A stretch of 64,000 bases of DNA from Actinomycetota bacterium (GTDB taxonomy: Bacteria > Actinomycetota > Humimicrobiia > Humimicrobiales > Humimicrobiaceae), in contig DUQM01000015.1 of the NCBI GenBank assembly GCA_012837825.1, positions 11,318 to 75,317 on the forward strand. Direction: 5' to 3'. Made by a program: the position numbers and the translations under genes. The notes beneath the pieces are model-generated. The model saw only the letters and a program-made list of their open reading frames with translations. It was not told the origin of the DNA and did no database searches. The stretch's first letter is position 1; every line of letters begins with the position of its first letter. Shown here one piece after another: positions 25,282 through 37,778 of this stretch.

Positions 25282-25438
25282 AAAAACTCCTGTCTGGTTT
25301 TTTGATAATCCGAATCAGTTCGAACGGTTTATTTTTTCCAAAATAATTAATTGATAACTTATGAACTATGGATCAATATGATTTATTATATTTTTATGCG
25401 GCAATTTACAGGAAAAAGATAAGTGGCTGCGCCTGATA

Positions 25439-25927: not shown

Positions 25928-26332
25928 AACTTATTTAATATCCGGTTTTTATTTATACTAAATAAAATATTTATAAATTTTATAACTTATAACAGATTAT
26001 CTGTTTTGTTTTATAAATATGTGATCGGTATTGCAAATAATGATATTTAAAAATAATTTTTATTTCCCGCTATTACTATTATAGTATCACACCCATTGAT
26101 TAATTTCAGCTTATAGAACATGCCGGAACTCAATAATAAAAACCGGTCGGATTTATAATTTTTATGAATCCTTATATATAAAAAAGCCATAATAAATAAC
26201 TGTAAATATAAATTTTAAGCATGGAAAAGATAATGAAGCTATTTAAATCCAAAAAAGGCATTATTTATTATGAATACTCTTCAGAAAATCCTGTGCATAC
26301 AAAAAATTATTGAAAAATATCATTGTCTGATT

Positions 26333-27460
26333 TTATTTCATCATTTTTTGTATTATCTGGCTTGAAATAATATCAACCATCTCATCTATGCTGTTTCTTG
26401 ATAAGGAGGAAGATAGCTTATTCCCTATGCTTCCCGGATCTATTTTGCAGTTTGCGGAATCGACGTACTGTCTGGTTTTAATTTCTACATATTCACAGAA
26501 AGGAATTATTTCCTTCGATGGTGAATATTCCATTTTTGTATGTGGAAAATATTTTAGAAGAAGATCTTCTGTCATTTTCCTCAGTTTATTTTTCACTTCA
26601 ACCAGCTCATTGCCAAGCAAAGTGTTATAAGCCATTTTCGGAGGACCCATTTTTATTCCTCTTAAATCAAGAGCTTCCTTGAAACCCTGGGGGAAATTTA
26701 CTGATTTCATTGTTCTTATGAATTCAAGAATTGCAAACTGAAGCTCAAGAGCGCGGGAATGGTTCCCGTTTAAAAAATTATCATAAATGCCTACCATGAA
26801 TTCCGGAAGTATTCCGGCTGTTGCAGTCATGCAGCCTTTGCCACCGGCTGCAAGAGCAGGATACAGAATTTCTTCCGCCCCTACAAGCACCTTGAAATCA
26901 GGCTTTATTTTCTTCGTCATTTCTATAAGATTCATGACATTTATCATATTCCCTGATGAATCCTTGATGCCTACAACATTTGGAAGAACGCAGAGGTCAC
27001 GAGCTATCTGCGGTGTTACTTCATTTGCAAAAAAAGGTATATTGTATAAAAAAATCGGAATATCGACAGCAACTGCAACTTTCTTGAGATGCTCCTCAAC
27101 AATATCATTTATATTTTTGAAGAAATAAGGGCCATGAAGCACAACTGCGGAACAACCTTTTTCTTTTGCATAATCTGCCAGTTCAATTGATTTTTCAAAA
27201 CAAGTTGCTCCTGTGCCGGGAATAATGGCTACCCTTCCATTATTTTCATCAGCAACTATGTCAATCAGATACTTTCTCTCTTCCATATCCATATGCACAT
27301 ATTCACCGCATGATGAAACAGGAAAAATACCATCAACGCCACTGTCGATCAGAAAATTAACAAGTTTTCTTACTTCAATTTCGTTTACTCTCCCATCTTC
27401 TTTGAAGGGAGTAAGCATTGCAACTATTACACCTTCCGGAATAGCCATCTTTAACTCCAA
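26333..27460 (-). CDS. DapA/N-acetylneuraminate lyase family enzyme (2-keto-3-deoxy sugar-acid aldolase or dehydratase) with ~80-aa C-terminal extension
   Basis: …VIVAMLTPFKEDGRVNEIEVRKLVNFLIDSGVDGIFPVSSCGEY… TIM-barrel Schiff-base lyase family signature. It is the last gene of the sugar-acid operon. The C-terminal 80 aa lie outside the normal ~295-aa fold. Confidence 0.6.
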   Translation of the reverse strand: MELKMAIPEGVIVAMLTPFKEDGRVNEIEVRKLVNFLIDSGVDGIFPVSSCGEYVHMDMEERKYLIDIVADENNGRVAIIPGTGATCFEKSIELADYAKEKGCSAVVLHGPYFFKNINDIVEEHLKKVAVAVDIPIFLYNIPFFANEVTPQIARDLCVLPNVVGIKDSSGNMINVMNLIEMTKKIKPDFKVLVGAEEILYPALAAGGKGCMTATAGILPEFMVGIYDNFLNGNHSRALELQFAILEFIRTMKSVNFPQGFKEALDLRGIKMGPPKMAYNTLLGNELVEVKNKLRKMTEDLLLKYFPHTKMEYSPSKEIIPFCEYVEIKTRQYVDSANCKIDPGSIGNKLSSSLSRNSIDEMVDIISSQIIQKMMK

Positions 27461-27593
27461 TTTCTTTAAAACTTAAAAGATTTAAAATAATAACAGCACA
27501 AACCATGCCTGCAATCAATATATTATATGCCGGTAATCAATATATTACATATTTATATTAAAGGAAAGGTATGTAAAGTATTATTTTAATTTT

Positions 27594-28808
27594 TTAAATT
27601 TTTAATTTTTCAATTACTTCCATATTAAGTGTTATCCCAAAACCCGGCTTGTCTTCATCAATTTCCATAAATCCATCCTCCGCCCCGGGGCTCCCCAGGA
27701 TATAAGCATCCGAGAAACCACCTTTCTGCTCTTTCTTCTCCCATGAAGGAACACAGGTATCTTCTGCCCATTTTACAGAGGGACACGACATGACAAAATG
27801 CAAAGTTTCAGCATAACTCACATGTGGGGCAAGCGGAACGCCAAATGCTTCAGCAATTGCAGCAACTTTCTTTGCTTCTGTAAGACCACCCATTCTTCTA
27901 ATATCCGGCTGGATAATATCAACTACTTTTTGCGATATAAGCTGGGCAAATCCGAATCTTGTATATTCATGTTCGCCGGCTGCAATTGGTGTAGATACTT
28001 TTGTTTTAAGATATTTGTAGCCTTCAATATTATCAGGCAAAAGCGGCTCTTCCACCCAGGTAAGATTATACTTCTCAAGTCTTTTAATCATTTCCACCGA
28101 ATAATCAAGGTCGTTCCATCCCATATATGCGTCTATCATTAATTCAATCTCATCTCCAACTGCCTCTCTTACAGTTTTGACAAGCATTTCATTTCTTTTC
28201 ATGCCTTTAAATCCTTCCCTGGGACCTGTGCACATCCTTTGCTTTAATCCAAGATAGCCCTGCTTAACATAATCTTTTGCCTCAAGAGCCAGCTTTTCAT
28301 AATCAGGATTGTATATATCGCTGGGATGCAGATTGGATGCATATAGTTTTACCTTGTCTTTTGTTTTTCCTCCCAGAAGCTTATAGACAGGAACCTTAAG
28401 GGCTTTTCCTTTTAAATCCCATAAAGCATTGTCAACACCGCTTATTGCTTCGATTGCAGCACCTTTGCGTCCAAAAACAATAGAAGCCCGATACATTTTA
28501 TCCCATAAAGCCTCGGAATCAAAAGGATCCGCTCCTATAAGATAATTTTTATAATGGTTTTCTATAAGGATTCTTCCCGCTGCTGCAGTACCGCCGCAGC
28601 AAAAACCATAGCCCTCAATACCGCTGTCTGTCTTTATTATAACTATGGGAACTATCCAGTCAGTACCGCCTGTCCACATCCCCCGATCGGTTGCATATTC
28701 CTCATAGGGTTCCATCACTCCAACCAAAGGAGAATATCTTATAAATTTGGCAAATCCCTCTGATTTTGTTGCGGCAATATCAATTACCTGAACGTCTGTA
28801 ATCTTCAT
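27594..28808 (-). CDS. Enolase-superfamily (mandelate racemase/muconate lactonizing enzyme family) sugar-acid dehydratase, candidate L-rhamnonate/6-deoxyhexonate dehydratase
   Basis: 404 aa with an N-terminal capping domain and a barrel domain bearing acid/base and metal-ligand residues (…ELMIDAYMGWN…LTWVEEP…). Its operon context includes RhaM. Confidence 0.65.
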   Translation of the reverse strand: MKITDVQVIDIAATKSEGFAKFIRYSPLVGVMEPYEEYATDRGMWTGGTDWIVPIVIIKTDSGIEGYGFCCGGTAAAGRILIENHYKNYLIGADPFDSEALWDKMYRASIVFGRKGAAIEAISGVDNALWDLKGKALKVPVYKLLGGKTKDKVKLYASNLHPSDIYNPDYEKLALEAKDYVKQGYLGLKQRMCTGPREGFKGMKRNEMLVKTVREAVGDEIELMIDAYMGWNDLDYSVEMIKRLEKYNLTWVEEPLLPDNIEGYKYLKTKVSTPIAAGEHEYTRFGFAQLISQKVVDIIQPDIRRMGGLTEAKKVAAIAEAFGVPLAPHVSYAETLHFVMSCPSVKWAEDTCVPSWEKKEQKGGFSDAYILGSPGAEDGFMEIDEDKPGFGITLNMEVIEKLKI

Positions 28809-28889
28809 TTAACACCCGTCTTTATTTAAAAATTTTATTATAATAAATCTTTATTTTATATCTTTGCCCTACAAAACAATTGATTTTAT

Positions 28890-29669
28890 TTATTTTATCA
28901 GACCGGAAGGAAAATCTTTATCCAGAATATCAGGATCATGGCTTGTCAGAACAATATCAGCCCTGCTGCTGATTTTCTTATATGCTTCAAAGCATTCCCA
29001 GAGATTATAAAATAGTCCGACAGGATGATTGTTTTTTACATTACTTTTTAAAAAAGCCACATCTGAAGTCATTACAACCTTTCCTGATTGTGTCTCTGCT
29101 TCCACAGCCATACAGCAGGGCGTATGTCCTCCGACATAAAATACTTTAAGCCCGGGTAGTATTTCTTCTTCTTCGCCAGCGAGAATTATTTTTTCTGCAG
29201 GTAGTGAAGAGATATATTGTATCGGTTCAGTCGGGAAAAGTGCATCATTATAATAATAAGGTCTTTTCTTTTTCATATACTCAAGCCAGCCTTTGCGAGA
29301 TAATACGACTTTGGCATTTTTAAAAATCCCGACATTTGATGAATGATCATGATGAAGGTGGCTTATTATCACATAATCTACTTTTTCCGGGATGATCCTT
29401 CTTTTTTTGATATAGGACTGTATTCTTTCCTCTTCAGGAAGATCAAAGCTGATTTTCCCCTTAAATTCTTTAAAAAGCATTTTATTTATAATATCGGTAT
29501 CTCCGCATCCGGTATCTACAAGAATGGTTCTGTTTCCGGACTTTAGCTGAAAAAAATAAGTATGAAGATTATAACTATTGTCCCATTCGCTCAGATAAAA
29601 CATTTCAGGTCCGGGAGCGCTTGTCTGCCCGTTCTTAAAAATCTCAATTGAATATTTCATAACAGCCAA
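28890..29669 (-). CDS. MBL-fold metallo-hydrolase (candidate sugar lactonase)
   Basis: HxHxDH motif (ISHLHHDHSSN) and downstream His/Asp ligands. The lactonase role is inferred from pathway context only. Confidence 0.55.
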   Translation of the reverse strand: MAVMKYSIEIFKNGQTSAPGPEMFYLSEWDNSYNLHTYFFQLKSGNRTILVDTGCGDTDIINKMLFKEFKGKISFDLPEEERIQSYIKKRRIIPEKVDYVIISHLHHDHSSNVGIFKNAKVVLSRKGWLEYMKKKRPYYYNDALFPTEPIQYISSLPAEKIILAGEEEEILPGLKVFYVGGHTPCCMAVEAETQSGKVVMTSDVAFLKSNVKNNHPVGLFYNLWECFEAYKKISSRADIVLTSHDPDILDKDFPSGLIK

Positions 29670-29706
29670 ACCTTTTTAAATATTTAACACAATATTTTTA
29701 TTTATT

Positions 29707-30498
29707 TTATTGCTCTTGTTCTGAAACATTGATAAGCATTCCGTTATTTATCATTATTCCGCCTTCTACAAAAATAGTTGAGCCCGTGACATAATCGCAG
29801 TCAGCCGATGAAAGAAAAACTGCAGCCTTTCCCATATCTTCAGGTGTTCCCCATCTATGAAGCGGAATTATTTTATTTAATCTGTCAACCAGTCCCGGAA
29901 ATTCTTCTATCTGTACCTTATTTATATCTGTAATTACTGCGCCGGCTGCAATGGTATTGACATTTATCTTATACTCAGCCAGTTCAAGCGCCATGCTCTT
30001 GGCAAGCATTTTTATAGCACTCTTAGTTATACTGTATACGCCCTGGCTGCCGTTTGGTACTTCCTGATTAAAAGAAGTTACAAAAACTATTTTGCCGCCT
30101 TTATTTCTTTTAACAAGGTATCTTGCAACTTCCTGCCCGACATTAAAAGCTCCCACCAGATTTATATTCATCTGAAAATCCCAGGCTTCCTTGGTAATCT
30201 CCAGAAAAGGCTCAAACTTTACAACCCCGGCATTATTAATAAGTATATCAAGCTCATTTTTAGAAATTATTTCAGAAATCATTCTGTCAACTTCACATCT
30301 GTTTGAAACATCTGCTTTGATGCTATAGGCTTGTACTCCAAGATTTTTTAATTCCTTAACAGTTTCCTCTGCCTTTCCGGGGTCAGAAACATAATTAACA
30401 ACAACATTGCATCCTTCTTTGGCAAGTTCAATGCTTATACCTTTCCCTATGCCTCTTCCACCACCTGTAATCAGTGCCCATTTATTTTTTAGTCTCAT
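29707..30498 (-). CDS. SDR family NAD(P)-dependent oxidoreductase (candidate L-rhamnose/6-deoxyhexose 1-dehydrogenase)
   Basis: TGGGRGIGKG cofactor motif, NNAG, and catalytic S…YxxxK (YSITKSA). Confidence 0.7.
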   Translation of the reverse strand: MRLKNKWALITGGGRGIGKGISIELAKEGCNVVVNYVSDPGKAEETVKELKNLGVQAYSIKADVSNRCEVDRMISEIISKNELDILINNAGVVKFEPFLEITKEAWDFQMNINLVGAFNVGQEVARYLVKRNKGGKIVFVTSFNQEVPNGSQGVYSITKSAIKMLAKSMALELAEYKINVNTIAAGAVITDINKVQIEEFPGLVDRLNKIIPLHRWGTPEDMGKAAVFLSSADCDYVTGSTIFVEGGIMINNGMLINVSEQEQ

Positions 30499-30544
30499 AA
30501 CTGCTCCAAATTATTTTTATTTAAATATTTTAATTAATTTTCCT

Positions 30545-30880
30545 TTAATGCATCAGCTTTCCGTTTTCATAGCTGAATATCAGCGGAAGTTCTTTCATGC
30601 TTTCATTAAGTTCCGGAACAGATTTAGTCATTGCAAGTGTAATTGCATTCCACCTCTTCAAGCCTTCATCACTTTCAAAAACCTCAAGCATCTTTTTTTT
30701 GTCTTCTACTTCAAGATAAATAAAAACAAGGTTTTTAAAGATTGCAATCTCTTCTTTTATTACTCCGGCCTTTTTATTTACCTGTATTATTTCAGGCCAC
30801 ACATTTTCTTTTTTATGAATTTTTATATAATTTTCTATTTCATCTTCTTTAAGTTCCATTAGCCAGATGATTCTTTCCAT
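30545..30880 (-). CDS. rhaM: L-rhamnose mutarotase (RhaM/YiiL family)
   Basis: About 104-111 aa, MERIIWLMELKEDEIENYIKIHKK…VWPEI…RWNAIT…. The size and motif pattern match the RhaM family. Confidence 0.65.
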   Translation of the reverse strand: MERIIWLMELKEDEIENYIKIHKKENVWPEIIQVNKKAGVIKEEIAIFKNLVFIYLEVEDKKKMLEVFESDEGLKRWNAITLAMTKSVPELNESMKELPLIFSYENGKLMH

Positions 30881-30996
30881 AATAGCTCCAAGATAAAAAA
30901 AATTCTTTATTAGTAGTTCTTTTTTATAAAAATAATAAGTGTTTGGTTGGTCAAGATAATTTATAGGGGGCTTTTATTTAAGCCCCCTATAAATAC

Positions 30997-32058
30997 TTAA
31001 ATCAGGTCTTTAAATTCGTCAATATTGTCTTTATTAAATCTGAATAAAGAATCGCCTAAAAATACAAGACCTTGTTCATCACCAGCTTGTTCTCCAATAG
31101 TATACTTGCCAAGTCTTCCGGCTTCAAATGTTTCTCCCGGTTTGCCGGTAATAGCACCGGTAGCCAATAAATGAGTGGAATATGCATTTACATAACCAAG
31201 ATCAATAGGGTTCCATAGAGCAAATATAGGAGACGCACCATTTTTTACATATTCAGCCATTTCGCTAGGCATACCCAGTCCGGTTACAAAGACTTTTCCA
31301 ATCATGTCTTCGTCAGTCACAGCTCTTGCTGTAGCTGCAACTCCAACCGTTGTAGGAGCTATTATCCCTTTTAAATCCGGATAAGATTTAAACAAGCCAA
31401 GTGCTTCATTATAGCTCTTTTCCCTGACATCATCTCCATAAACAACACTGACAAGTTCTATTTTTGAATACTCAGGCTTCTCCAATTCTTCTTTCATGTA
31501 TTCAATCCATGTGTTTTGATTGGCCATTGTGGCGGCAGCACTTAAAATCGCTATCTGCCCTTCACCATCTATCAGTTCAGAAATAATTTTCACCTGATCA
31601 ATACCAATTACTTTCTGGTCTACGGGTTCAACAGAAAGTTGCCTGCTTCCAGGAACATTTCCGGATTCCCATCCTACAACTGCAATGCCTGCATCCATAG
31701 CTTTTTTTGCAACTGAGGCGATTGATTGAGGATCATTTGCTACATAAGTAATACCATCAACTTTCTGTGCAATGAGCTGCTCCATTATCTCTATCTGACC
31801 CTCTGGAGTAGGTTGTTCCGGACCTCTGAATATTGATTCATCTCCTAATTCTGCTGCAGCTTCATCCCAGCCTTTTTTAATAGCATCGAAAAAAGGATTG
31901 CCTATATTTTTTACTACCAAAGCAATTTTAAGACCGCCTTCCTTTGCTGCACCAGCTCCTTCTGTAACAGCAGCTTTTGTTTTGCACCCTATCCCAAAAG
32001 ATAGTGTTAAAACAATACATACAATAAAGAAAGTAAAAATCATTACTTTTCTTTTCAT
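30997..32058 (-). CDS. Sugar ABC transporter periplasmic substrate-binding protein (RbsB/RhaS-like)
   Basis: N-terminal lipoprotein-type signal (…LSFGIGC) followed by a periplasmic-binding-protein type I fold. It is adjacent to the RbsC-type permeases. Confidence 0.7.
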   Translation of the reverse strand: MKRKVMIFTFFIVCIVLTLSFGIGCKTKAAVTEGAGAAKEGGLKIALVVKNIGNPFFDAIKKGWDEAAAELGDESIFRGPEQPTPEGQIEIMEQLIAQKVDGITYVANDPQSIASVAKKAMDAGIAVVGWESGNVPGSRQLSVEPVDQKVIGIDQVKIISELIDGEGQIAILSAAATMANQNTWIEYMKEELEKPEYSKIELVSVVYGDDVREKSYNEALGLFKSYPDLKGIIAPTTVGVAATARAVTDEDMIGKVFVTGLGMPSEMAEYVKNGASPIFALWNPIDLGYVNAYSTHLLATGAITGKPGETFEAGRLGKYTIGEQAGDEQGLVFLGDSLFRFNKDNIDEFKDLI

Positions 32059-32120
32059 GTATCCTCCTCTCTTTTGATAAATTATTTATTAATTATCTGA
32101 ATAGCCGCTAAAATTAATTT

Positions 32121-33110
32121 CTATTGCCGTAAAGGCTTTGGTTTTGTGAAATTTTTTACAAAATTGTTGATAAGTATAGATAAAATCAGAAGGGTGCCTG
32201 AAATTATCAACATAATCTGCCCCGGAACATTATGAAGCCCCAGGCCATATCTTATAGTTCCTATCAGAAATATTGATATAATTACACCGGGCATAGTGCC
32301 TGTTCCTCCAGACATCATTACCCCTCCCAGAATTACGATAGTTATTATTTCCAGCTCAAATCCTGTTGCCAGATTTGGTCTGGTATTTCCTATTCTGGCA
32401 GTTAAAAACATTGCAGCAAAACTGGAAATAAAGCCGGAAAGAGTAAATAAAATCAATTTTATTTTTTTTACCGGTATTCCTGATGCAAAACAGGAATTTT
32501 CATTCCATCCTATTGCATATATCATTCTACCCATAAAAGTTTTGTGAAGAACCAGAGAAAATATGATGGCAAGCACAATAAAAACAATAAGAGGGAATGG
32601 TATTTTTGTATTGCCGATATAACCCTGACCAAGATAAGTAAATTTTTCCGTAAAACCGCTGACTGCTTTATCCCCAAGTATTACATAAGAAATCCCTCTG
32701 TAAAATGAAAAAGTAGCCAGGGTTATTATCATAGACGGCAAAGAAAGTCTTGTTATTATAAATCCGTTTAAAAAACCGCAGAAAGTTCCTGCCAGTATGC
32801 CTAATAGTACTGATATCCATATATTTATTCCTGATTGAAAGCTTACAGCCATTACTACTGACGACAGACTCATTGTCGATGCAACTGAAAGATCAATATT
32901 GCCTGTAATTATTATGAGTGTCATAATAAGAGCAATCAGACCCTTTTCCATAAAAATAAAAGTCATATCAAGTATATTCCGGGCATTGAGATAATGAGGT
33001 GTGGTAAAACTCATTATAATATTGAAAATTATAAATATAAGAAACAACATTGTTTCCCATCTGGAAAATACTGATTTAAAGCGATTACTCTTTTTAACCA
33101 TATCTGTCAT
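32121..33110 (-). CDS. Sugar ABC transporter permease (RbsC/AraH family)
   Basis: 329 aa and polytopic, with a branched-chain/ribose permease-like pattern. It is in an operon with the SBP and the dual-NBD ATPase. Confidence 0.7.
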   Translation of the reverse strand: MTDMVKKSNRFKSVFSRWETMLFLIFIIFNIIMSFTTPHYLNARNILDMTFIFMEKGLIALIMTLIIITGNIDLSVASTMSLSSVVMAVSFQSGINIWISVLLGILAGTFCGFLNGFIITRLSLPSMIITLATFSFYRGISYVILGDKAVSGFTEKFTYLGQGYIGNTKIPFPLIVFIVLAIIFSLVLHKTFMGRMIYAIGWNENSCFASGIPVKKIKLILFTLSGFISSFAAMFLTARIGNTRPNLATGFELEIITIVILGGVMMSGGTGTMPGVIISIFLIGTIRYGLGLHNVPGQIMLIISGTLLILSILINNFVKNFTKPKPLRQ

Positions 33111-33111
33111 T

Positions 33112-34137
33112 TTATATATGCTTTCTTTCTTTCAATGCTTTATTTATATTTCTTGCAAGAACTGCGTCAATAATTACCGCTACCAAAATGATTCCTCCAT
33201 TGATCGCCAGTTTCCAGAATGGAGATACCCCGATTAGATTTAAAGAACTGTTAATTGCACCTATAAGAATTGAGCCAAATAATACTCCCCATATTGACCC
33301 TGAACCGCCAGCTATAGCTACCCCTCCCAGAATTACTGCTGTAATTGTAGTAAATTCAAATCCTGAAGCAGAATCTGTCTGTGCTGAAGTATATCTGGCA
33401 ACCCATAAAACTCCTGCCATTCCAACAAGTATTCCGGTAATGATATAGGTAAGAAAAATTGTCTTTTTTATATTTATGCCTATGATTTTTGCACTTTCAG
33501 GACTGCTTCCGGTTGCATATGTTTCCCGACCGGCAGTAGTGTGATTCAAGAAGTAATAAAAAATCAGATAAACTATAATGGTAATTAGTATTAAATTAGG
33601 TATCTTTAAGAATGTCCCTCTTGCAAAGTTCTTAAAAGCTTCCGGCAGCTTGTCTGCTCCAACCCATTGACCGCCATTAATCTGATAGTTGATTATAAAA
33701 GTAAGACCCCTGAAAACATTCATGGTGCCAAGCGTAGCTATAATAGGTGGGATATTGCCTTTTACAATTAATACACCATTAAGAGCTCCCATTGCTGCAC
33801 CGATTATCATACCTATAAGTATAGCCAGCAAGGGATTGAAATTTGCGGTGTCTTTTATTATCAAAGCCACTATCATTCCTGAAAGACCAATACCTGCGCC
33901 TACCGAAATATCAATACCTCTGGTAAGAATTACCATCATCTGCCCAACGGCAACTATCGCAAGGATTGCGGTATCAAGAGCAATATCATATATATTGTCC
34001 AGACTGATAAAAACAGGATTAATCAAAGATATTACCAGAGAAAAAACAATTAAAAATCCAAGTACGCTTATTTCTCTTATACTGGCGAATTTTACAACCA
34101 GACTACTTGATGAGTTTGAATTTTTCTTATCAGTCAT
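33112..34137 (-). CDS. Sugar ABC transporter permease (RbsC/AraH family), second subunit
   Basis: 341 aa and polytopic, paralogous to the preceding permease. Confidence 0.7.
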   Translation of the reverse strand: MTDKKNSNSSSSLVVKFASIREISVLGFLIVFSLVISLINPVFISLDNIYDIALDTAILAIVAVGQMMVILTRGIDISVGAGIGLSGMIVALIIKDTANFNPLLAILIGMIIGAAMGALNGVLIVKGNIPPIIATLGTMNVFRGLTFIINYQINGGQWVGADKLPEAFKNFARGTFLKIPNLILITIIVYLIFYYFLNHTTAGRETYATGSSPESAKIIGINIKKTIFLTYIITGILVGMAGVLWVARYTSAQTDSASGFEFTTITAVILGGVAIAGGSGSIWGVLFGSILIGAINSSLNLIGVSPFWKLAINGGIILVAVIIDAVLARNINKALKERKHI

Positions 34138-34146
34138 TTGTGTTTT

Positions 34147-35655
34147 TTATGTCTTTTTATTACTAATATTAGATAATGCTGCTTCCAGTATTTTTTCCTG
34201 ATTAGCTTCAGACCTTGAAAAGGAACCTGTGACAAGGCCTTCATGCATTATTAAAATATTATCGCTCATTCCAATTATTTCAGGCAGATCTGAAGAAATC
34301 ATTAAAATACCGTTTCCTTTAACAGCAAGTTCACTTATAAATTTATGCACGGAAGCTTTTGCTCCTACATCAATACCTTTGGTAGGTTCATCAAAAATAA
34401 ATATCTTGGTTTTAGTTGCCAGCCATTTGGCAAGCGAGACTTTCTGCTTATTTCCTCCGCTTAGGTTCATTACTTTCTGGTCAATACCTGAGGTTTTTAT
34501 TTCAAGAATATCCACAAATTTATTTGTTAATTCTTTTTCAGCTTCTAAATCCAGCCATGTAAGTTTGCTTATTTTACTTAAAATAGGTAATGAAATATTA
34601 GAAACAAGATTCATCCCAAGTATTATGCCTTCTTCATCTCTGTTTTCAGGAATATAAGCTATGCCTTTTTCAATAGCCTGGGAAGGAGTTAATCTATTTA
34701 ACTTCTGCCCTTCTAAAAAAACTTCTCCGCTATCATAAGGATCCATGCCGAAAATAGCTTTTGCCAGCTCAGTCCTTCCGGAACCTATTAAACCGTATAA
34801 ACCAAGTATTTCCCCTTTATGCAGAGAAAAATTTACATCCTTAAAAGCACCTTTTTTTGAAAGGTTTTTAGTGCTTAAAATTTCCTCACCTATTTCTGCA
34901 TCAAGTTTGGGGTATAAATTATCAACTTTACGCCCCACCATCATTTGAATTAGATCATCTTTAGTCACTTCTTCTATAGTTTTTGTACCTACGCATTTCC
35001 CGTCTCTAAGCACGGTAAGCCTGTCGGTTACTCTAAAGATATCTTCAATCCTGTGAGATATGAATATTACTGATACTCCCGAATCTTTTAACTGAGCTAT
35101 TATTTCAAATAATTTTTCCGACTCGGAAATACTAAGCGCAGATGTAGGTTCGTCCATTATTATTATTTTGGATTTAATGGAAAGTGCTTTGGCAATTTCA
35201 ACCATCTGTCTTTCAGCAAGGCTGAGTGATCTTATTTTCTGCTTTGGATTCAGATTAATATTAAGTTCTTTCATCAGATTTTCTGTTTTTTTGTAAAGGT
35301 TGCGCCAGGATATTTTTCTAGTATATTTGTTGTAGGACTGATGTCCCATGAATATGTTTTCAGCAATATTAAGATCCGGAAAGATTGCAGGTTCCTGATA
35401 AATAGCTGCTATACCGCTATTTATTGATTCCATCGGACTAGACCAGACAATATCTTCTCCTTCATAAATGATTTTTCCGCTTGTCGGAAAATAAACGCCG
35501 GTAATTATTTTAATTAAAGTTGATTTGCCGGCTCCGTTTTCACCGATAATTGAGTGAACTTCTCCATATTTTAATGAAAAATCAACATCATCCAGAGCAG
35601 CGCCTCCGGAAAAAATCTTTGTTATATTTTTCAGTTCTAAGATATATTCAGACAT
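34147..35655 (-). CDS. Sugar ABC transporter ATP-binding protein with duplicated NBDs (RbsA-like)
   Basis: Two Walker A (GENGAGKST; GLIGSGRTE), two signature (LSLAERQMVEIAKAL; LSGGNKQKVSLAKWL) and two Walker B motifs. Confidence 0.85.
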   Translation of the reverse strand: MSEYILELKNITKIFSGGAALDDVDFSLKYGEVHSIIGENGAGKSTLIKIITGVYFPTSGKIIYEGEDIVWSSPMESINSGIAAIYQEPAIFPDLNIAENIFMGHQSYNKYTRKISWRNLYKKTENLMKELNINLNPKQKIRSLSLAERQMVEIAKALSIKSKIIIMDEPTSALSISESEKLFEIIAQLKDSGVSVIFISHRIEDIFRVTDRLTVLRDGKCVGTKTIEEVTKDDLIQMMVGRKVDNLYPKLDAEIGEEILSTKNLSKKGAFKDVNFSLHKGEILGLYGLIGSGRTELAKAIFGMDPYDSGEVFLEGQKLNRLTPSQAIEKGIAYIPENRDEEGIILGMNLVSNISLPILSKISKLTWLDLEAEKELTNKFVDILEIKTSGIDQKVMNLSGGNKQKVSLAKWLATKTKIFIFDEPTKGIDVGAKASVHKFISELAVKGNGILMISSDLPEIIGMSDNILIMHEGLVTGSFSRSEANQEKILEAALSNISNKKT

Positions 35656-35660
35656 ATTTT

Positions 35661-36704
35661 TTATTTAGCTTTATATTGTTTATTTTTATATTTAGACGCT
35701 GATTTTCTTTTTATCAGTCTGGACTCCAGATTAATGATATTACCTTTCCCGGCCTGCCTTTTTTTAATAATATCAAGCATCATTTCCATAGCTTTTTCAC
35801 CCATCTGTTCTTTTGGCTGTTCAATTGTAGTAAGAGGCGGATCAAGAAAAGCGCTGAGCAGAAGATTGTCAAACCCCAGAACAGAAACATCTTCAGGGAT
35901 TTTACACCCTTTCTCTTTAAGAATATTATAAATACCTGCTGCTACATTATCAGTTACTGTCATGATGGCAGTAGGAAAACTGCCGTCTTCAAAAAATTTT
36001 TTTGCGTACTCATAAGTCATTCCCATTTCATCCATAGAATACTGTTTCATAATCAATACGTTTTCCTGCCTGTACTCTAAGCCATTCTGTAATAATCCTT
36101 CCTTAAACCCTTCAAATCTTTCACTGACTGTATGCCTTTCCTTAAATTCAAAAGTGATATATCCGATATCTCTGTGGCCAAGCGAAGCAAGATAATCGAC
36201 TCCTGATTTTGCAGCTTCAAAATTGTTAATAAGCACTGAAGGTATATCTTCACCAACTTTTCTTGCGACAAGCACAATAGGAAATTTTTCATTGTTAAGT
36301 TCTCTTATGCATCTTTCATTATCAAGACCACTCACAAATATGGCTCCGTCCACATACTGATTTTTTAAATTTTCAATAAGCCTGGTTTCTTCATCGCTGT
36401 CATAAAAAGTATTGACGATGATAATATGAAAATCATTTTTATTAGCTATTTTATTAATCCCAATAAGTACCTGTGAAAAAAACTGACTTGCTATATTTGG
36501 AATAAAGACAGCTATTGTGTTGAGTGATTTTTTTCTTAAACCTTTTGCCAGGGTACTTGCCTTATAGCCCATTTCGGAAGCAGTGGAGAATATTTTTTCT
36601 TTTGTTTCTTTTTTTACATATCTGGAGCCATTCAGCGCATGGGAAACTGTGGAAATTGAAACTCCGCAAGCTTTTGCAACATCTTTTATATTATATCTAG
36701 CCAT
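35661..36704 (-). CDS. LacI family transcriptional regulator
   Basis: N-terminal HTH MARYNIKDVAKACGVSISTVSHALNG and a periplasmic-binding-like effector domain. Confidence 0.85.
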   Translation of the reverse strand: MARYNIKDVAKACGVSISTVSHALNGSRYVKKETKEKIFSTASEMGYKASTLAKGLRKKSLNTIAVFIPNIASQFFSQVLIGINKIANKNDFHIIIVNTFYDSDEETRLIENLKNQYVDGAIFVSGLDNERCIRELNNEKFPIVLVARKVGEDIPSVLINNFEAAKSGVDYLASLGHRDIGYITFEFKERHTVSERFEGFKEGLLQNGLEYRQENVLIMKQYSMDEMGMTYEYAKKFFEDGSFPTAIMTVTDNVAAGIYNILKEKGCKIPEDVSVLGFDNLLLSAFLDPPLTTIEQPKEQMGEKAMEMMLDIIKKRQAGKGNIINLESRLIKRKSASKYKNKQYKAK

Positions 36705-36746
36705 TTGTTATTAGACTGTATATAAAATATATAAAATTCTCTAATA

Positions 36747-36773
36747 CGAAACGATTTCTGCGAAACGATTTCT
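36747..36773. promoter_or_regulatory. Tandem candidate LacI-family operator half-palindromes (CGAAACGATTTCT x2)
   Basis: Two exact 13-nt copies separated by 1 nt, each GAAAcgaTTTC with palindromic ends resembling LacI/CcpA-type operators. They lie 43-70 bp upstream of the LacI regulator start, the first gene of the operon. Confidence 0.4.
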
Positions 36774-37055
36774 ATATTAAATCACCTTGCATTTTTTGTC
36801 AATATTGATTTTTATTTTTATATTATTTTAAGGAAATAATATCTGCTATTCTTTTAATATAAACAGTTCTGGATATATTCTGATAGTCTGGCTGTGGCAA
36901 TAAGCCTGGGGCTTAGTCGGCACGTTTAAAGAAAAAATAAGGCTGATAAGCTTAAATCTGCTTCCGGTCTACGATGATGAATGCATGGAAAAATGTGCGT
37001 TCAAAAAAGGCAGGCAGGGATTTGGATATTAACGGATTACGGATTGTGAAAAATC

Positions 37056-37137
37056 AACAGACTTGATTGCTTATATAAAAAATAATGCCTGATATGAAAC
37101 AGACTTGATTGCTTATATAAAAAATAATGCCTGATAT
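37056..37137. repeat. Perfect tandem direct repeat, 2 x ~40 bp (aacagacttgattgcttatataaaaaataatgcctgatat), period 42
   Basis: Both copies were read directly from the sequence. The unit contains TTGATT…TGATATAAA, which is compatible with a -35/extended -10 promoter. Confidence 0.7.
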
Positions 37138-37170
37138 AAAAATCTCTCTTGACTGTACCGGCTCTTCATC

Positions 37171-37204
37171 AAAAAAAATGAGGCCGATTTGAGATCAGCC
37201 TCAT
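37171..37204 (-). terminator. Rho-independent terminator (minus strand)
   Basis: Stem atgaggc/gcctcat with a 13-nt loop, followed on the minus strand by an 8-nt U-run (plus-strand A-run 37171-37178). It is downstream of the small 37318..37575 gene. Confidence 0.6.
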
Positions 37205-37317
37205 TAAAAATAATATCAACTGCATATCATTTCCGTTCCGGGAAACTGTTTCTTTCTGTAATAAAAAATTCCCTGCAGATTTGAGGAAATGTGCTGCGCT
37301 ACAGTTTCATGGTTTAC

Positions 37318-37545: not shown

Positions 37546-37778
37546 TTTTCCTCCTGATTGAAATAAAAAAATCACTTAACAATATCAGTGAAAAATATCA
37601 AAGATATATTAATACTCTGATTAGCAATATATTAATTGTTATATTAAAACTAATTTAAGTATAATGCAATCATAAATAAAATAAATATATAAATATTGAT
37701 AAATGATTTATTAAAGACAAATATTTATATTATTACTTTGACTAAAAACCGGATTATTTCCTTTTCATTCTGAAGCTG

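What the first reader, a model, noticed from the sequence alone, without database searches (positions are those of the whole stretch)
26333..36773. LacI-controlled ABC transporter plus oxidative (non-phosphorylative) 6-deoxyhexose (L-rhamnose-type) catabolic operon
A minus-strand operon runs, in order: LacI regulator, RbsA-like ATPase, two permeases, SBP, RhaM mutarotase, SDR dehydrogenase, MBL-fold hydrolase, enolase-superfamily dehydratase, and a DapA-family enzyme. This is the enzyme logic of the non-phosphorylative rhamnose route: sugar to lactone to sugar acid to 2-keto-3-deoxy acid to pyruvate plus lactaldehyde. Two elements differ from the characterised versions. An MBL-fold hydrolase sits in the lactonase slot, and a DapA-family enzyme with an 80-aa C-terminal extension sits in the final slot. 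Both substitutions would be new variants if confirmed. There is no rhaA/rhaB/rhaD isomerase-kinase-aldolase set.
Basis: inference. Interest (0 to 1): 0.5.

Follow-up and report, generated by a model that had tools for sequence, protein, structure and literature searches.

The report
Oxidative rhamnose operon with microcompartment-tailed aldolase
An uncultured anaerobic actinobacterium carries a sugar-import and sugar-oxidation gene cluster that most likely breaks down rhamnose without phosphorylation, and the odd tail on its last enzyme belongs to a family of tails that look like address labels for bacterial microcompartments.

Summary
The ten genes are present, in the order given, on the minus strand. 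The same cluster recurs in related metagenome genomes (Ca. Humimicrobium lineage, biogas and sediment samples). The pathway logic is plausible. The binding protein passes NCBI's rhamnose-SBP equivalog model, and its best solved relatives are rhamnose-binding proteins. The mutarotase, SDR and enolase-family dehydratase each have a rhamnose-pathway protein as best named match, though all three fall below the equivalog cut-offs.

Two corrections apply. First, a DapA-family (PF00701) enzyme in the last slot is not a substitution, because the characterised L-KDR aldolase LRA4 is PF00701. Second, this gene has its own conserved upstream region and stays at the locus in a relative that lacks the rest of the cluster.

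The MBL-fold protein has all its metal ligands. Its homologues also sit beside SDRs and sugar transporters, so a non-orthologous lactonase is credible.

The main new point concerns the C-terminal tail. It is a disordered linker followed by a terminal helix, and it defines a subfamily. Outside the window's clade, 9 of 17 loci in that subfamily lie beside microcompartment shell genes, against 0 of 48 for tail-less relatives. The tail resembles the encapsulation peptides of neighbouring cargo. The window's own tail is diverged, and no shell gene lies in the window.

The parts
36774..36802 (-). Promoter-like site TTGACA-17-TAATAT upstream of lacI
   Evidence: Consensus scan, 10 of 12 matches. The same TTGACA plus -10 layout occurs upstream of lacI in L003 and upstream of the SDR gene in L018. 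Function is inferred.
36747..36773 (-). Candidate LacI operators: two exact tandem copies of AGAAATCGTTTCG (half-palindromes around a central CG)
   Evidence: These are the only two AAAWCGTTTY sites in the 64 kb. Equivalent pairs sit at the same position in L003 (GAATCGTTTTC and GAAAACGTTTTG) and L018 (CAAAACGTTTTG and CAAATCGTTTTG). Binding is inferred.
35661..36704 (-). LacI-family transcriptional regulator (347 aa)
   Evidence: PF00356 HTH plus PF00532/PF13377 sugar-binding domains. No NCBIfam equivalog cut-off is reached.
34147..35655 (-). Sugar ABC transporter ATPase, two fused ABC domains (502 aa)
   Evidence: PF00005 twice. RbsA/XylG/AraG-like, 535-550 bits, below the equivalog cut-offs.
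33112..34137 (-). ABC permease 1 (341 aa)
   Evidence: PF02653. Similar to ribose and arabinose permeases.
32121..33110 (-). ABC permease 2 (329 aa)
   Evidence: PF02653. AraH-like.
30997..32058 (-). Substrate-binding protein, RhaS-type rhamnose binding protein (353 aa)
   Evidence: TIGR02637 RhaS equivalog, 393.2 bits against a cut-off of 342.25. Best PDB relatives are the rhamnose-binding proteins 4kvf (245 bits) and 5bq3 (241 bits).
30963..30990 (-). GC-rich hairpin (ATAGGGGGCT-loop-AGCCCCCTAT) right after the SBP stop codon; possible attenuator or RNA stabiliser between the transport and enzyme genes
   Evidence: Read from the sequence. Not reported by the terminator scan, because no T run follows. 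Role is inferred.
30545..30880 (-). RhaM-family mutarotase (111 aa)
   Evidence: PF05336, 53.5 bits against 23.4. TIGR02625 YiiL scores 35 bits against a cut-off of 99.6, so that cut-off is not met. The only PDB hit is E. coli YiiL 1x8d, E 0.001.
29707..30498 (-). SDR, proposed NAD(P)-dependent sugar 1-dehydrogenase (263 aa)
   Evidence: PF00106/PF13561. The two best NCBIfam models are L-rhamnose 1-dehydrogenases (203 and 197 bits, cut-offs 400 and 450), only marginally above generic SDR models. PDB hits are generic.
28890..29660 (-). MBL-fold hydrolase, proposed sugar-acid lactonase (256 aa)
   Evidence: PF00753. The best named relatives are all lactonases: AiiA, YtnP, AhlS, AttM and 4-pyridoxolactonase, all far below cut-off. 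The HLHHDH, GGH, SD and SHD ligand motifs are intact. Homologues at 60% and 44% identity also lie between SDR genes and sugar ABC transporter genes.
27594..28808 (-). Enolase-superfamily acid-sugar dehydratase (404 aa)
   Evidence: PF02746 plus PF13378. The best NCBIfam model is L-rhamnonate dehydratase, 237 bits against a cut-off of 393. PDB: 3ssz/3stp/3sqs at 252-262 bits, then the fungal (3fxg/2p0i) rhamnonate dehydratases at 226 bits and the unnamed Azotobacter-type entry 2oz3 at 219 bits.
27449..27600 (-). Conserved AT-rich upstream region of the aldolase gene (probably its own promoter). It contains a window-specific 22-nt tandem duplication at 27505-27547.
   Evidence: Alignment with L001, L003, L005 and L006. 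The block is retained in L006, which lacks the upstream genes. Duplication.
26549..27448 (-). PF00701 (DHDPS/NAL-family) catalytic TIM barrel, residues 1-300; proposed 2-keto-3-deoxy-6-deoxyhexonate (L-KDR) aldolase
   Evidence: PF00701, 204 bits. The dapA equivalog is not reached (171 against 206). K162, Y135, Y108 and the G48-E49 motif are conserved family-wide. The alignment to DHDPS 2yxg shows no residue at the position of the DHDPS arginine after the YN(V/I)P motif. AF2 pLDDT is mostly above 90. The best fold match is YagE, a 2-keto-3-deoxy-sugar-acid aldolase.
26336..26548 (-). C-terminal tail, residues 301-371. Residues 301-340 form a conserved segment, the remnant of the family's Cys motif. 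A variable Ser-rich linker follows, then a terminal helix at residues 351-370 (26339-26398).
   Evidence: AF2 gives pLDDT 33-36 for residues 320-350 and a helix at 351-370 with pLDDT 71-77. Family alignment. Segment-wise conservation. A profile of the whole tail finds only this family among 1.84 billion representatives. The tail-bearing subfamily is linked to BMC shell genes.

Best explanation
The region is a LacI-repressed uptake and catabolism cluster for an L-rhamnose-type 6-deoxyhexose. It follows the oxidative, non-phosphorylative route.

Proposed steps:
1. A RhaS-type binding protein, two permeases and a fused ATPase import the sugar.
2. A RhaM-family mutarotase supplies the right anomer.
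3. The SDR oxidises C1 to the lactone.
4. The di-metal MBL-fold enzyme opens the lactone. It stands in for the amidohydrolase-type LRA2.
5. The enolase-superfamily enzyme dehydrates the sugar acid to the 2-keto-3-deoxy acid.
6. The PF00701 class I aldolase, of the same family as LRA4, cleaves this through a Schiff base on Lys162 to pyruvate plus L-lactaldehyde.

Regulation: LacI probably binds two tandem operators just downstream of the -10 of the lacI promoter. The aldolase gene has its own conserved upstream region.

The tail: the roughly 70-aa tail of the aldolase is a disordered linker ending in a helix. In the wider subfamily it is best read as a microcompartment encapsulation tail. That would place release of the aldehyde inside a lactaldehyde-processing microcompartment. 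In the window's clade the tail has lost its Cys motif and part of its amphipathic character, so its present role is uncertain.

Shown: gene content, family membership, conservation of the cluster, tail architecture, and the link between shell genes and the subfamily.
Inferred: the substrate, every enzymatic step, LacI control and encapsulation.
For: Transport and substrate:
- The SBP passes the RhaS equivalog model and is closest to solved rhamnose-binding proteins.
- The RhaM Pfam hit is above its gathering score.
- The top NCBIfam models are rhamnose 1-dehydrogenases for the SDR and L-rhamnonate dehydratase for the enolase protein. Rhamnonate dehydratases 3fxg/2p0i (and the unnamed Azotobacter-type entry 2oz3) score 219-226 bits.

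Lactonase:
- All named relatives are lactonases.
- The metal ligands are intact.
- The SDR and sugar-ABC neighbourhood is conserved at 60% and 44% identity.

Aldolase:
- PF00701, with conserved Lys, Tyr and GE motif.
- Not DapA: below the dapA cut-off and lacking the arginine position.
- The best fold match is the sugar-acid aldolase YagE.
- KdgD dehydratase models score lowest among the DHDPS-family models.
- LRA4 is PF00701 (PMC5674754).
- Tail-less relatives sit next to Eda/PfkB or HpcH aldolase genes, that is, in 2-keto-3-deoxy-acid clusters.

Cluster conservation: including L018 at 63% identity.

Operators.

Tail:
- AF2 architecture in two family members.
- A BMC-H gene lies directly downstream in L010, L011, L012/L084, L016, L051/L085 and L086.
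- A full BMC locus lies next to the gene in L013/L087.
- Five BMC-P genes lie upstream in L014/L015.
- 9 of 17 tail-bearing loci have shell genes, against 0 of 48 tail-less loci.
- A profile of the tail helix finds the N-terminal peptide of the BMC aldehyde dehydrogenase as the best hit outside the family among 10,506 ORFs. It also finds the class II aldolase and PTAC peptides, each at the correct terminus.
- BMC-type aldehyde dehydrogenases with N-terminal peptides occur in MAGs named Ca. Humimicrobiaceae, the family of the window's genus.
- C-terminal encapsulation peptides on aldolases of fucose/rhamnose microcompartments are established for PF00596 enzymes (PMC8217296).
Against: - The SDR, dehydratase, mutarotase and MBL protein do not reach their equivalog cut-offs where one was scored, so substrate specificity is not settled.
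- The best PDB relatives of the dehydratase (3ssz, 3stp, 3sqs) are not named rhamnonate dehydratases. From memory they belong to the L-lyxonate dehydratase group.
- No enzyme for the fate of lactaldehyde lies in the 64-kb window.
- The aldolase gene persists alone in UBA1414 and has its own upstream region, so its tie to the other genes is not obligatory.

For the tail in this window:
- There is no shell gene in the window or within +/-10 kb in five close relatives.
- The Cys motif is lost.
- The hydrophobic moment of the terminal helix is 0.42, not above shuffled controls. BMC-linked homologues give 0.52-0.75.
- The helix is no better conserved than the linker by identity.
Confidence: 0.6

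Rival explanations
1. Same enzyme logic, different sugar. The cluster would handle L-lyxose, L-mannose, L-fucose or another (deoxy)aldose rather than L-rhamnose, with the aldolase releasing glycolaldehyde or another aldehyde.
For: Only the SBP reaches an equivalog cut-off. The dehydratase is closest to 3ssz/3stp/3sqs rather than to named rhamnonate dehydratases. From memory, 3stp is an L-lyxonate dehydratase, and L-lyxonate shares C2-C4 stereochemistry with L-rhamnonate. RhaM-family proteins also serve as fucose mutarotases in oxidative fucose clusters (from memory; cj0488 is listed only as a 'conserved hypothetical protein' induced with the fucose locus in PMC12566272).
Against: The SBP passes the rhamnose-specific model and matches two solved rhamnose-binding proteins. 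L-fuconate dehydratase structures are not among the 60 best PDB hits. Four components independently have a rhamnose-pathway protein as best named match.
Confidence: 0.2
2. The PF00701 protein is a 2-keto-3-deoxy-acid dehydratase, like L-KDP dehydratase or KdgD, rather than an aldolase. The route would then be Weimberg-like and end in a semialdehyde that an aldehyde dehydrogenase oxidises.
For: From memory, DHDPS-family dehydratases follow enolase-type dehydratases in the L-lyxonate and L-arabinose routes. PMC6336799 cites these routes without naming the enzyme family. In many tail-bearing homologues a non-acylating aldehyde dehydrogenase lies two genes upstream. Its NCBIfam hits include alpha-ketoglutaric semialdehyde dehydrogenase at 395 bits, below the cut-off.
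Against: No aldehyde dehydrogenase occurs in the window cluster or in L001-L005 and L018. KdgD models are the weakest DHDPS-family matches, at 97 bits. The top 50 fold matches are aldolases, NAL and DHDPS, with none named a dehydratase. The association with lactaldehyde-type BMC loci (class II aldolase, PTAC, acylating AldDH) fits an aldehyde-releasing lyase.
Confidence: 0.12
3. The PF00701 gene is a resident, independently expressed gene with another substrate. The SDR-MBL-dehydratase cassette merely landed next to it, and its product is finished elsewhere.
For: The gene has its own conserved upstream region and is retained alone in UBA1414. The 145-nt gap is the largest in the cluster. The family occurs in at least three other gene contexts: with DUF386; with a SftI-like isomerase, AldDH and 2-hydroxyacid dehydrogenase; and with HpcH/Eda/PfkB.
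Against: The SDR-MBL-dehydratase-PF00701 order is kept in relatives from 93% down to 63% protein identity, whether the transporter is present or not: L001-L005, L018 and L089-L094. Without this gene the cassette has no enzyme for the 2-keto-3-deoxy acid.
Confidence: 0.15
4. The C-terminal tail is not an encapsulation signal. It could be an oligomerisation, regulatory or metal/redox module, and the neighbourhood with shell genes would reflect shared substrate metabolism only.
For: The whole-tail profile hits no other protein family in 1.84 billion representatives. Most members carry a CxxCGMCxGD..C motif that canonical encapsulation peptides lack. The window's tail is weakly amphipathic. Eight of 17 tail-bearing loci, plus the whole window clade, show no shell gene nearby.
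Against: The linker-plus-terminal-helix architecture and the alternating hydrophobic-pair pattern match the published description of such signals (PMC12108088). The helix profile retrieves the peptides of three cargo enzymes in the one complete BMC locus available. A BMC-H gene lies 13-20 nt downstream of the aldolase gene's stop in L084-L086, and directly downstream in three further MAG loci. In L024 an unrelated class II aldolase carries an analogous Cys-motif-plus-helix tail.
Confidence: 0.3

Closest known systems
Non-phosphorylative L-rhamnose pathway LRA1-LRA4 (Scheffersomyces stipitis, Azotobacter vinelandii; Watanabe 2008, as summarised in PMC5674754 and PMC3870299)
   Same: The four-step logic is the same: 1-dehydrogenase (SDR), lactonase, enolase-superfamily rhamnonate dehydratase, and a PF00701 aldolase giving pyruvate plus L-lactaldehyde.
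   Different: The lactonase here is MBL-fold instead of the amidohydrolase-type LRA2 (family of LRA2 from memory). The SDR and dehydratase are below the equivalog cut-offs. The aldolase carries a roughly 70-aa tail. The host is an anaerobic, deep-branching actinobacterial lineage, whereas the 2013 survey found the bacterial pathway only in a few Proteobacteria (PMC3870299). Here it is coupled to a RhaS-type ABC importer, RhaM and a LacI regulator.
Route I non-phosphorylating L-fucose pathway of anaerobes (Veillonella ratti FucH; Campylobacter jejuni cj0481-cj0490; Watanabe 2020, cited in PMC12566272)
   Same: It is a cluster in an anaerobe or microaerophile with a DapA-like aldolase (from memory, cj0488 is a RhaM-family protein), a sugar dehydrogenase and a lactonase, producing pyruvate plus lactaldehyde.
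   Different: Those clusters use an amidohydrolase-type lactonase and an altronate-hydrolase/UxaA-type dehydratase (one search lists cj0487 and uxaA'), plus a FucP permease. No aldolase tail has been reported there. The substrate is fucose, not rhamnose.
RhaSTPQ L-rhamnose ABC transporter of Rhizobium leguminosarum (PMC3870299)
   Same: A binding protein of the TIGR02637 family, two permeases and an ATPase, with a RhaM/RhaU-type mutarotase nearby.
   Different: In Rhizobium it feeds the phosphorylated isomerase-kinase route and is controlled by a DeoR regulator. Here it feeds an oxidative route under a LacI-family regulator.
Fucose/rhamnose-type bacterial microcompartments (PVM, PVM-like, MIC4, ACI, MUF2) whose PF00596 class II aldolase carries a C-terminal encapsulation peptide (Sutter et al. 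2021, PMC8217296)
   Same: An aldolase that releases lactaldehyde carries a C-terminal linker plus amphipathic helix. Homologues of the window protein lie next to BMC-H, BMC-P, PduS-like, PTAC and acylating AldDH genes. The L087 locus resembles the MIC4 description.
   Different: The tailed enzyme is a class I, PF00701 Schiff-base aldolase acting on a non-phosphorylated 2-keto-3-deoxy acid, not a metal-dependent class II aldolase acting on a ketose 1-phosphate. The catalogue mentions PF00701 only once, in passing, for MUF2. Most family members add a Cys motif. The window has no shell genes.
AiiA-type MBL-fold lactonases (N-acyl-homoserine lactonases; also 4-pyridoxolactonase)
   Same: The fold and the complete HxHxDH...H...D...H di-metal site are shared, and the chemistry is lactone hydrolysis.
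   Different: The score is only 73 bits against the 375-bit AiiA cut-off. From the sequence, Phe sits three residues after the ligand Asp, where from memory AiiA has Tyr194. The genomic context is sugar oxidation, not quorum quenching.
L-lyxonate pathway of Pseudomonas aeruginosa (LyxD plus a DHDPS-family 2-keto-3-deoxy-L-lyxonate dehydratase; Ghasempur 2014, from memory, cited in PMC6336799)
   Same: An enolase-superfamily dehydratase, whose structural relatives are the best PDB hits here, is followed by a DHDPS-family enzyme.
   Different: That route needs a semialdehyde dehydrogenase and starts from the acid. The window has a dehydrogenase, a lactonase, a mutarotase and a rhamnose-type importer, and no aldehyde dehydrogenase.

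Membership tests
Non-phosphorylative L-rhamnose pathway (LRA1-4) | L-rhamnose 1-dehydrogenase of the SDR family | tested here: inconclusive
   It is an SDR. The two best NCBIfam models are rhamnose 1-dehydrogenases, at 203 and 197 bits against cut-offs of 400 and 450, barely above generic SDR models.
Non-phosphorylative L-rhamnose pathway (LRA1-4) | L-rhamnono-lactonase of the LRA2 type (amidohydrolase family, from memory) | tested here: not met
   No amidohydrolase gene is in the cluster. An MBL-fold protein occupies the slot. The step is probably covered by a non-orthologous enzyme.
Non-phosphorylative L-rhamnose pathway (LRA1-4) | Enolase-superfamily L-rhamnonate dehydratase | tested here: inconclusive
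   Superfamily membership is clear. NF011968 is the best model, but at 237 bits against a cut-off of 393. Rhamnonate dehydratase structures score 219-226 bits, behind 3ssz/3stp/3sqs.
Non-phosphorylative L-rhamnose pathway (LRA1-4) | PF00701-family L-KDR aldolase | tested here: met
   PF00701 at 204 bits. LRA4 is PF00701 (PMC5674754). Membership holds at family level only. Activity on L-KDR was not tested.
Non-phosphorylative L-rhamnose pathway (LRA1-4) | Demonstrated conversion of L-rhamnose to pyruvate plus L-lactaldehyde, and induction by rhamnose | not testable with these tools
   Needs enzymology and expression data from an uncultured organism.
RhaSTPQ-type rhamnose ABC transporter | Binding protein reaching the TIGR02637 equivalog score, with two permeases and an ATPase | tested here: met
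   393.2 bits against 342.25. PDB 4kvf and 5bq3 are the best hits. Permeases and fused ATPase.
L-rhamnose mutarotase RhaM/YiiL | PF05336 domain and the TIGR02625 equivalog score | tested here: inconclusive
   The PF05336 gathering score is passed, 53.5 against 23.4. TIGR02625 gives 35 bits against 99.6, which is not met.
4-hydroxy-tetrahydrodipicolinate synthase (true DapA) | TIGR00674 equivalog score, and the arginine that binds aspartate semialdehyde (role of the arginine from memory) | tested here: not met
   171 bits against a cut-off of 206. In the alignment to DHDPS 2yxg the arginine after YNVP falls in an insertion that is absent from the query.
AiiA-type quorum-quenching lactonase | NF045699 equivalog score | tested here: not met
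   73.5 bits against 375. Only the fold and the metal site are shared.
Bacterial microcompartment encapsulation peptide | A short terminal helix joined to the enzyme by a poorly conserved, unstructured linker | tested here: met
   AF2 on the window protein gives pLDDT 33-36 for residues 320-350 and a helix at 351-370. Homologue P0037 shows the same layout. The linker is the least conserved segment.
Bacterial microcompartment encapsulation peptide | Amphipathic helix with alternating hydrophobic and hydrophilic pairs (PMC12108088) | tested here: inconclusive
   The pattern is visible (MV-D-II-SSQ-II-QK-MM). The hydrophobic moment is 0.42, not above shuffles (fraction 0.235). BMC-linked homologues give 0.52-0.75 and bona fide neighbouring cargo peptides 0.57-0.81.
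Bacterial microcompartment encapsulation peptide | Gene encoded with, or in a genome with, BMC shell genes (PF00936, PF03319) | tested here: inconclusive
   Not met in the window or in its five closest relatives within +/-10 kb. Met for 9 of 17 more distant tail-bearing loci and 0 of 48 tail-less ones. BMC-type AldDH with such peptides occurs in Ca. Humimicrobiaceae MAGs. The rest of the source genome could not be read.
Bacterial microcompartment encapsulation peptide | Tail necessary and sufficient for encapsulation | not testable with these tools
   Requires reporter fusions and shell purification.
LacI-family repressor with palindromic operator | N-terminal LacI HTH plus a periplasmic-binding-protein-like effector domain, and a CG-centred palindrome near the promoter | tested here: met
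   Domains. Two tandem AAATCGTTTC sites lie just downstream of the -10, and the position is conserved in L003 and L018. Binding and effector were not tested.

The most novel reading that the evidence does not exclude
The PF00701 enzymes with this tail would be a previously undescribed class of microcompartment cargo: class I (Schiff-base) 2-keto-3-deoxy-sugar-acid aldolases targeted by a C-terminal linker, Cys motif and helix. In the window's organism, the non-phosphorylative rhamnose route would then hand L-KDR to a microcompartment, where lactaldehyde is released and processed. That would be an oxidative counterpart of the PVM/MIC4-type organelles, which use phosphorylated ketoses and class II aldolases.
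Probability: 0.35. Interest if true: 0.75.

Novelty: new variant of a known kind. Interest (0 to 1): 0.55.

Why it matters
If the assignments hold, three things follow.
1. The oxidative rhamnose route would extend to strictly anaerobic, uncultured Actinomycetota that are common in digesters and sediments. A 2013 comparative survey found the route in only a few Proteobacteria.
2. An MBL-fold enzyme would join the known sugar-acid lactonase families (SMP30 and amidohydrolase).
3. A tailed class I aldolase family linked to shell genes would connect non-phosphorylative sugar-acid catabolism to bacterial microcompartments. Microcompartment catalogues key on signature enzymes and currently list class II and DeoC-type aldolases. 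A new signature enzyme, plus a tail with a conserved Cys motif, would give a testable handle on uncharacterised organelle types. It would also be a new targeting module for engineering.

Tried and rejected
- Shell genes in the window.
- Walking beyond the window. Exact-protein look-ups of the first and last window genes and of the 375-aa ORF version of the aldolase returned nothing. The rest of the source genome, whose longest contig with the identical MBL protein is 330,682 bp, could not be inspected.
- Literature. No paper in the library combines microcompartment with dihydrodipicolinate or rhamnonate dehydratase with an MBL lactonase. Searches for 3STP/3SSZ/3SQS and for lyxonate dehydratase gave nothing useful. 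Ghasempur 2014, Watanabe 2020 and Hobbs 2013 are not held, so statements about them rest on memory or on citing papers.
- Whole-tail profile against 1.84 billion representatives. It found only fragments of the same family. The tail is therefore not detectably shared with other enzyme families at the sequence level.
- Hydrophobic moment and segment identity for the window tail. Neither singles out the helix. I therefore did not claim that the window protein itself is encapsulated.
- Rfam over the whole window. Only tmRNA at 81-434 was found, with no riboswitch or leader in the cluster.
- Terminator scan. No convincing intrinsic terminator lies inside or after the cluster. The only strong one, at 37177-37205, ends the upstream small ORF.
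- A true DapA role and an AHL-lactonase role were considered and rejected on the equivalog scores and gene context.

Full report
**1. The observation**

The minus strand of 26333-36704 carries ten co-directional ORFs. In order they are:
- a LacI regulator
- a fused double ABC ATPase
- two BPD_transp_2 permeases
- a Peripla_BP_4 binding protein
- a RhaM-family protein
- an SDR
- an MBL-fold protein
- an MR/MLE enolase-superfamily protein
- a PF00701 protein

Two starts need correction.
- The PF00701 protein starts at the ATG at 27448 and is 371 aa, like all its close homologues.
- The MBL protein starts at 29660 and is 256 aa. It is identical to database protein P0121.

The window has about 36% G+C. 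The flanks hold housekeeping and envelope genes: tmRNA, SmpB, SecA, RF2, FtsEX, nucleotide-sugar enzymes and many glycosyltransferases. They also hold a DUF134 / NifX-like / MinD-ferredoxin group typical of anaerobes.

The nearest named genome is Ca. Humimicrobium oleiphilum UBA1414. It is syntenic with 80-84% nucleotide identity. NCBI places it in class Ca. Humimicrobiia of the Actinomycetota. Contigs whose MBL protein is identical to the window's (the flanking genes were not compared by sequence) come from several metagenomes, including a biogas fermenter.

**2. Is it a real unit?**

The cluster, or its four-gene core SDR-MBL-dehydratase-PF00701, recurs in relatives from 93% down to 63% protein identity: L001-L005, L018 and L089-L094. 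The unit is modular.
- L001 and L002 have the four enzymes without the regulator, transporter or mutarotase.
- L003 and L004 have all ten genes, plus a DUF485/SSF symporter pair after the last gene. The window lacks that pair.
- L018 has LacI directly before the SDR.
- UBA1414 (L006) keeps only the PF00701 gene at the syntenic site. Two radical-SAM-like ORFs on the other strand lie where the other nine genes would be.

About 150 nt upstream of the PF00701 gene are conserved in all of these loci, UBA1414 included. The last gene therefore probably has its own promoter and is the resident of the locus. The window carries a private 22-nt tandem duplication in that region.

**3. Regulation**

A good sigma-70-like site, TTGACA-17-TAATAT, lies at 36802-36774. 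It is followed at once by two exact tandem copies of AGAAATCGTTTCG at 36747-36773.

These are the only AAAWCGTTTY sites in the 64 kb. By itself that count is not significant. However, equivalent CG-centred palindromes sit at the same position relative to a TTGACA/-10 pair in two other loci:
- L003: GAATCGTTTTC and GAAAACGTTTTG
- L018: CAAAACGTTTTG and CAAATCGTTTTG, in front of the SDR gene

. This is the usual form of a LacI-family operator. Binding is inferred.

A GC-rich hairpin follows the binding-protein gene at 30963-30990. It may set the ratio of binding protein to downstream enzymes.

**4. Substrate**

The binding protein is the only component that passes an equivalog model: TIGR02637 RhaS, 393 bits against 342. 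Its two best solved relatives are annotated rhamnose-binding proteins, 4kvf and 5bq3.

The other components point the same way but do not prove it.
- The mutarotase passes Pfam RhaM but not the YiiL equivalog.
- The two best models for the SDR are L-rhamnose 1-dehydrogenases, well below their cut-offs.
- The best model for the dehydratase is L-rhamnonate dehydratase, also well below its cut-off.
- In the PDB the dehydratase is closest to 3ssz/3stp/3sqs (252-262 bits), then to rhamnonate dehydratases (219-226 bits). From memory, 3stp belongs to the L-lyxonate dehydratases, and L-lyxonate has the same C2-C4 configuration as L-rhamnonate.
- L-fuconate dehydratase structures are not among the top hits.

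I put L-rhamnose or a stereochemically equivalent sugar at about two in three.

**5. The MBL protein**

Its named relatives are all lactonases: AiiA, YtnP, AhlS, AttM and 4-pyridoxolactonase. All are far below cut-off. The full di-metal ligand set is present: HLHHDH, GGH, SD and SHD.

The subfamily is small. Only 128 database clusters match (E <= 0.001), and the few that carry an organism name are almost all Actinobacteria/Actinomycetota MAGs.

Members at 60% and 44% identity again sit between SDR genes and sugar ABC transporter genes. This is what one expects of an enzyme that hydrolyses the product of a sugar 1-dehydrogenase.

Reviews list sugar-acid lactonases as SMP30 or amidohydrolase enzymes (PMC9795676; PMC13406643). 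An MBL-fold rhamnonolactonase would therefore be a non-orthologous replacement.

**6. The PF00701 protein is not a substitution**

The characterised L-KDR aldolase LRA4 of S. stipitis is a PF00701 protein (PMC5674754). The L-KDF aldolases of anaerobes are DapA-like too (Watanabe 2020, cited in PMC12566272).

The window protein is not a true DapA.
- It is below the dapA cut-off.
- It lacks the arginine position after the YN(V/I)P motif.

It keeps the Schiff-base lysine (K162), Y135, Y108 and the GE motif. Its best fold match is the sugar-acid aldolase YagE, and the top 50 matches are aldolases, NAL and DHDPS, with none named a dehydratase. KdgD dehydratase models are the weakest DHDPS-family hits.

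Tail-less relatives at 42-51% identity sit next to Eda/PfkB or HpcH aldolase genes. These are 2-keto-3-deoxy-acid clusters. An aldolase role is therefore the best reading. A dehydratase role remains a minority rival.

**7. The extension**

AF2 gives the following for the window protein:
- a confident TIM barrel to residue 300
- a disordered stretch at residues 320-350, pLDDT 33-36
- a terminal helix at residues 351-370

A Cys-motif homologue gives the same picture.

Across the family the tail has four parts:
- a conserved YFP... segment
- usually a D-C-x2-C-G-M-C-x-G-D-x(1-3)-C motif
- a variable low-complexity spacer
- a helix with consensus (D/E)-(L/I)-x-x-I-(V/I)-x-x-(V/I)-(V/I)-K-(K/N)-(V/I)

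This is the architecture and residue pattern described for microcompartment signal sequences (PMC12108088).

**8. Link to microcompartments**

All fetched homologues with the tail (at least 53% identity, 371-401 aa) were compared with tail-less ones. Several tail-bearing loci lie beside shell genes.
- A BMC-H gene lies immediately downstream, 13-20 nt after the stop in L084-L086, in L010, L011, L012/L084, L016 (labelled Bacteroidota), L051/L085 and L086.
- In L013/L087 the gene lies 1.5 kb upstream of a complete locus. That locus has two BMC-P genes, a PduS-like protein, BMC-T, a PF00596 class II aldolase, BMC-H, PTAC, an acylating AldDH that passes NF011927, and two more shell genes.
- In L014 and L015, five BMC-P genes lie divergently upstream.
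- L080 holds a decayed copy of the tailed gene next to a BMC-type AldDH.

Outside the window's clade, 9 of 17 tail-bearing loci have shell genes within the fetched DNA, against 0 of 48 tail-less loci. Fisher's test gives about 1e-6, which is indicative only, because the loci are not independent.

A profile of the tail helix was searched against all 10,506 ORFs of the window and loci.
- The best hit outside the family is the N-terminal peptide of the L087 BMC AldDH.
- It also finds the C-terminal peptide of the class II aldolase and the N-terminal peptide of PTAC, each at the correct terminus.

In L024 an unrelated class II aldolase next to a PF00701 homologue carries an analogous Cys-motif-plus-helix tail.

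The 2021 BMC catalogue records C-terminal peptides on PF00596 aldolases in the PVM, ACI, MIC4 and MUF2 types. It mentions PF00701 only once, in passing, together with a Cys-rich peptide-bearing protein in MUF2 (PMC8217296). No paper in the library links microcompartments and this family.

**9. Does this apply to the window protein?**

For:
- The tail has the same length and architecture as in the rest of the family.
- Its last residues (QIIQKMMK/QIIQKMLK) are nearly invariant in the clade (only M/L varies at the penultimate position), and segment 301-330 is under purifying selection.
- BMC-type AldDH proteins with canonical N-terminal peptides (MEIDAKLIEQIVRNVVENVV) occur in MAGs named Ca. Humimicrobiaceae.

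Against:
- There are no shell genes in the window or within +/-10 kb in five close relatives.
- The Cys motif is lost.
- The hydrophobic moment is modest and no better than shuffled sequence.

I could not read the rest of the genome. I rate the family-level reading (tail = encapsulation signal) at about 0.7, and encapsulation of this particular protein at about 0.35.

**10. Mechanism proposed**

1. Import through the RhaS-type ABC system.
2. Anomer supply by the RhaM-family protein.
3. NAD(P)+-dependent oxidation at C1 by the SDR.
4. Lactone hydrolysis by the di-metal MBL enzyme.
5. Beta-elimination of water by the enolase-superfamily enzyme to give L-KDR.
6. Retro-aldol cleavage on Lys162 of the PF00701 enzyme to pyruvate and L-lactaldehyde.

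In an anaerobe, lactaldehyde must be reduced to propanediol or converted through lactyl-CoA. No gene for this lies in the window. A microcompartment of the L087 type (acylating AldDH, PTAC) would supply exactly this, which is why the tail matters.

All catalytic steps are inferred from family membership and gene context.

**11. Verdict**

- The cluster is a new variant of a known pathway, with a non-orthologous lactonase in a new host lineage.
- The claim that the DapA-family aldolase is unusual is wrong as stated.
- The tail is the most interesting feature and points to a class I aldolase cargo family for microcompartments.

Noticed in passing
Family alignment A1; e.g. L084:10001-11191, residues ~335-350 of the 396-aa protein: Most tail-bearing PF00701 homologues carry a conserved D-C-x2-C-G-M-C-x-G-D-x(1-3)-C motif between the barrel and the terminal helix. 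It could be an Fe-S or Zn site. The window clade has replaced it with DSANCKIDP, yet that segment stays conserved. AF2 does not fold the motif.
   Followed up: partly
L024:~10050-10880 (+), Latescibacterota MAG: A PF00596-type class II aldolase next to a PF00701 homologue ends in HCGACPLGQCKGTCEE, a linker and the helix TRELIQRVIAQVTSRGL. This is the same kind of Cys-motif-plus-helix tail on an unrelated aldolase fold.
   Followed up: no
L084:6057-11469, L085, L086, L010, L016, L021, L022: A second conserved context of the tailed aldolase has this gene order: a 447-aa isomerase-like protein whose best NCBIfam match is sulfoquinovose isomerase SftI (208 bits, cut-off 700); a non-acylating aldehyde dehydrogenase; a D-2-hydroxyacid dehydrogenase; the tailed aldolase; and, in several loci (not L021 or L022), a lone BMC-H gene. 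The substrate is unknown.
   Followed up: partly
L008, L009, L014, L015, L017, L019, L070, L087 (directly downstream of the tailed aldolase gene): A DUF386 (YhcH/YjgK/YiaL) gene follows the tailed aldolase in eight loci. This recalls the NanA-YhcH pairing of sialic-acid clusters (from memory). It may act on the ring form of the keto-deoxy acid.
   Followed up: no
window 25928-26332, compared with L001:11277-13516 and L003:11264-13500: Relatives have a DUF485 plus sodium:solute symporter pair (ActP/MctP-like) right after the aldolase gene. The window has only a 405-nt AT-rich gap there.
   Followed up: partly
window 37056-37141 and 37177-37205 (-): A 42-nt unit is repeated twice at 97% identity in the spacer upstream of the lacI promoter. 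Next to it, a strong terminator-like hairpin (12 bp stem plus T run) ends a conserved small ORF at 37318-37575 (85 aa, no Pfam hit).
   Followed up: no
window 10483-20866 and 37779-48141, 53184-55140, 61608-63707: The catabolic cluster is embedded in envelope-glycan genes: phosphomannomutase, a bifunctional PGI/PMI-type isomerase, two NDP-sugar pyrophosphorylases, GDP-mannose 4,6-dehydratase, two further epimerase/reductases and at least ten glycosyltransferases. The organism therefore probably also makes 6-deoxyhexose-containing polymers next to genes that degrade a 6-deoxyhexose.
   Followed up: no
window 21301-25927 (-): A DUF134 / flavin reductase / DUF5320 / two NifX-NifB-like (PF02579) / two MinD-like P-loop proteins group, one member carrying 4Fe-4S ferredoxin domains. 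It is conserved downstream of the aldolase gene in all relatives. In the relatives it is interrupted by an extra MBL-fold gene plus a radical-SAM gene that the window lacks.
   Followed up: no
window 81-434 (-): A tmRNA gene (210 bits) lies next to smpB at 509-985.
   Followed up: no
L095 and L096: More distant homologues of the MBL protein lie in clusters rich in split transketolase / E1-type genes, cupins and SDRs. L096 also has a RhaA-like isomerase and an aldehyde:ferredoxin oxidoreductase. These may be other unexplored sugar routes in the same lineages.
   Followed up: no
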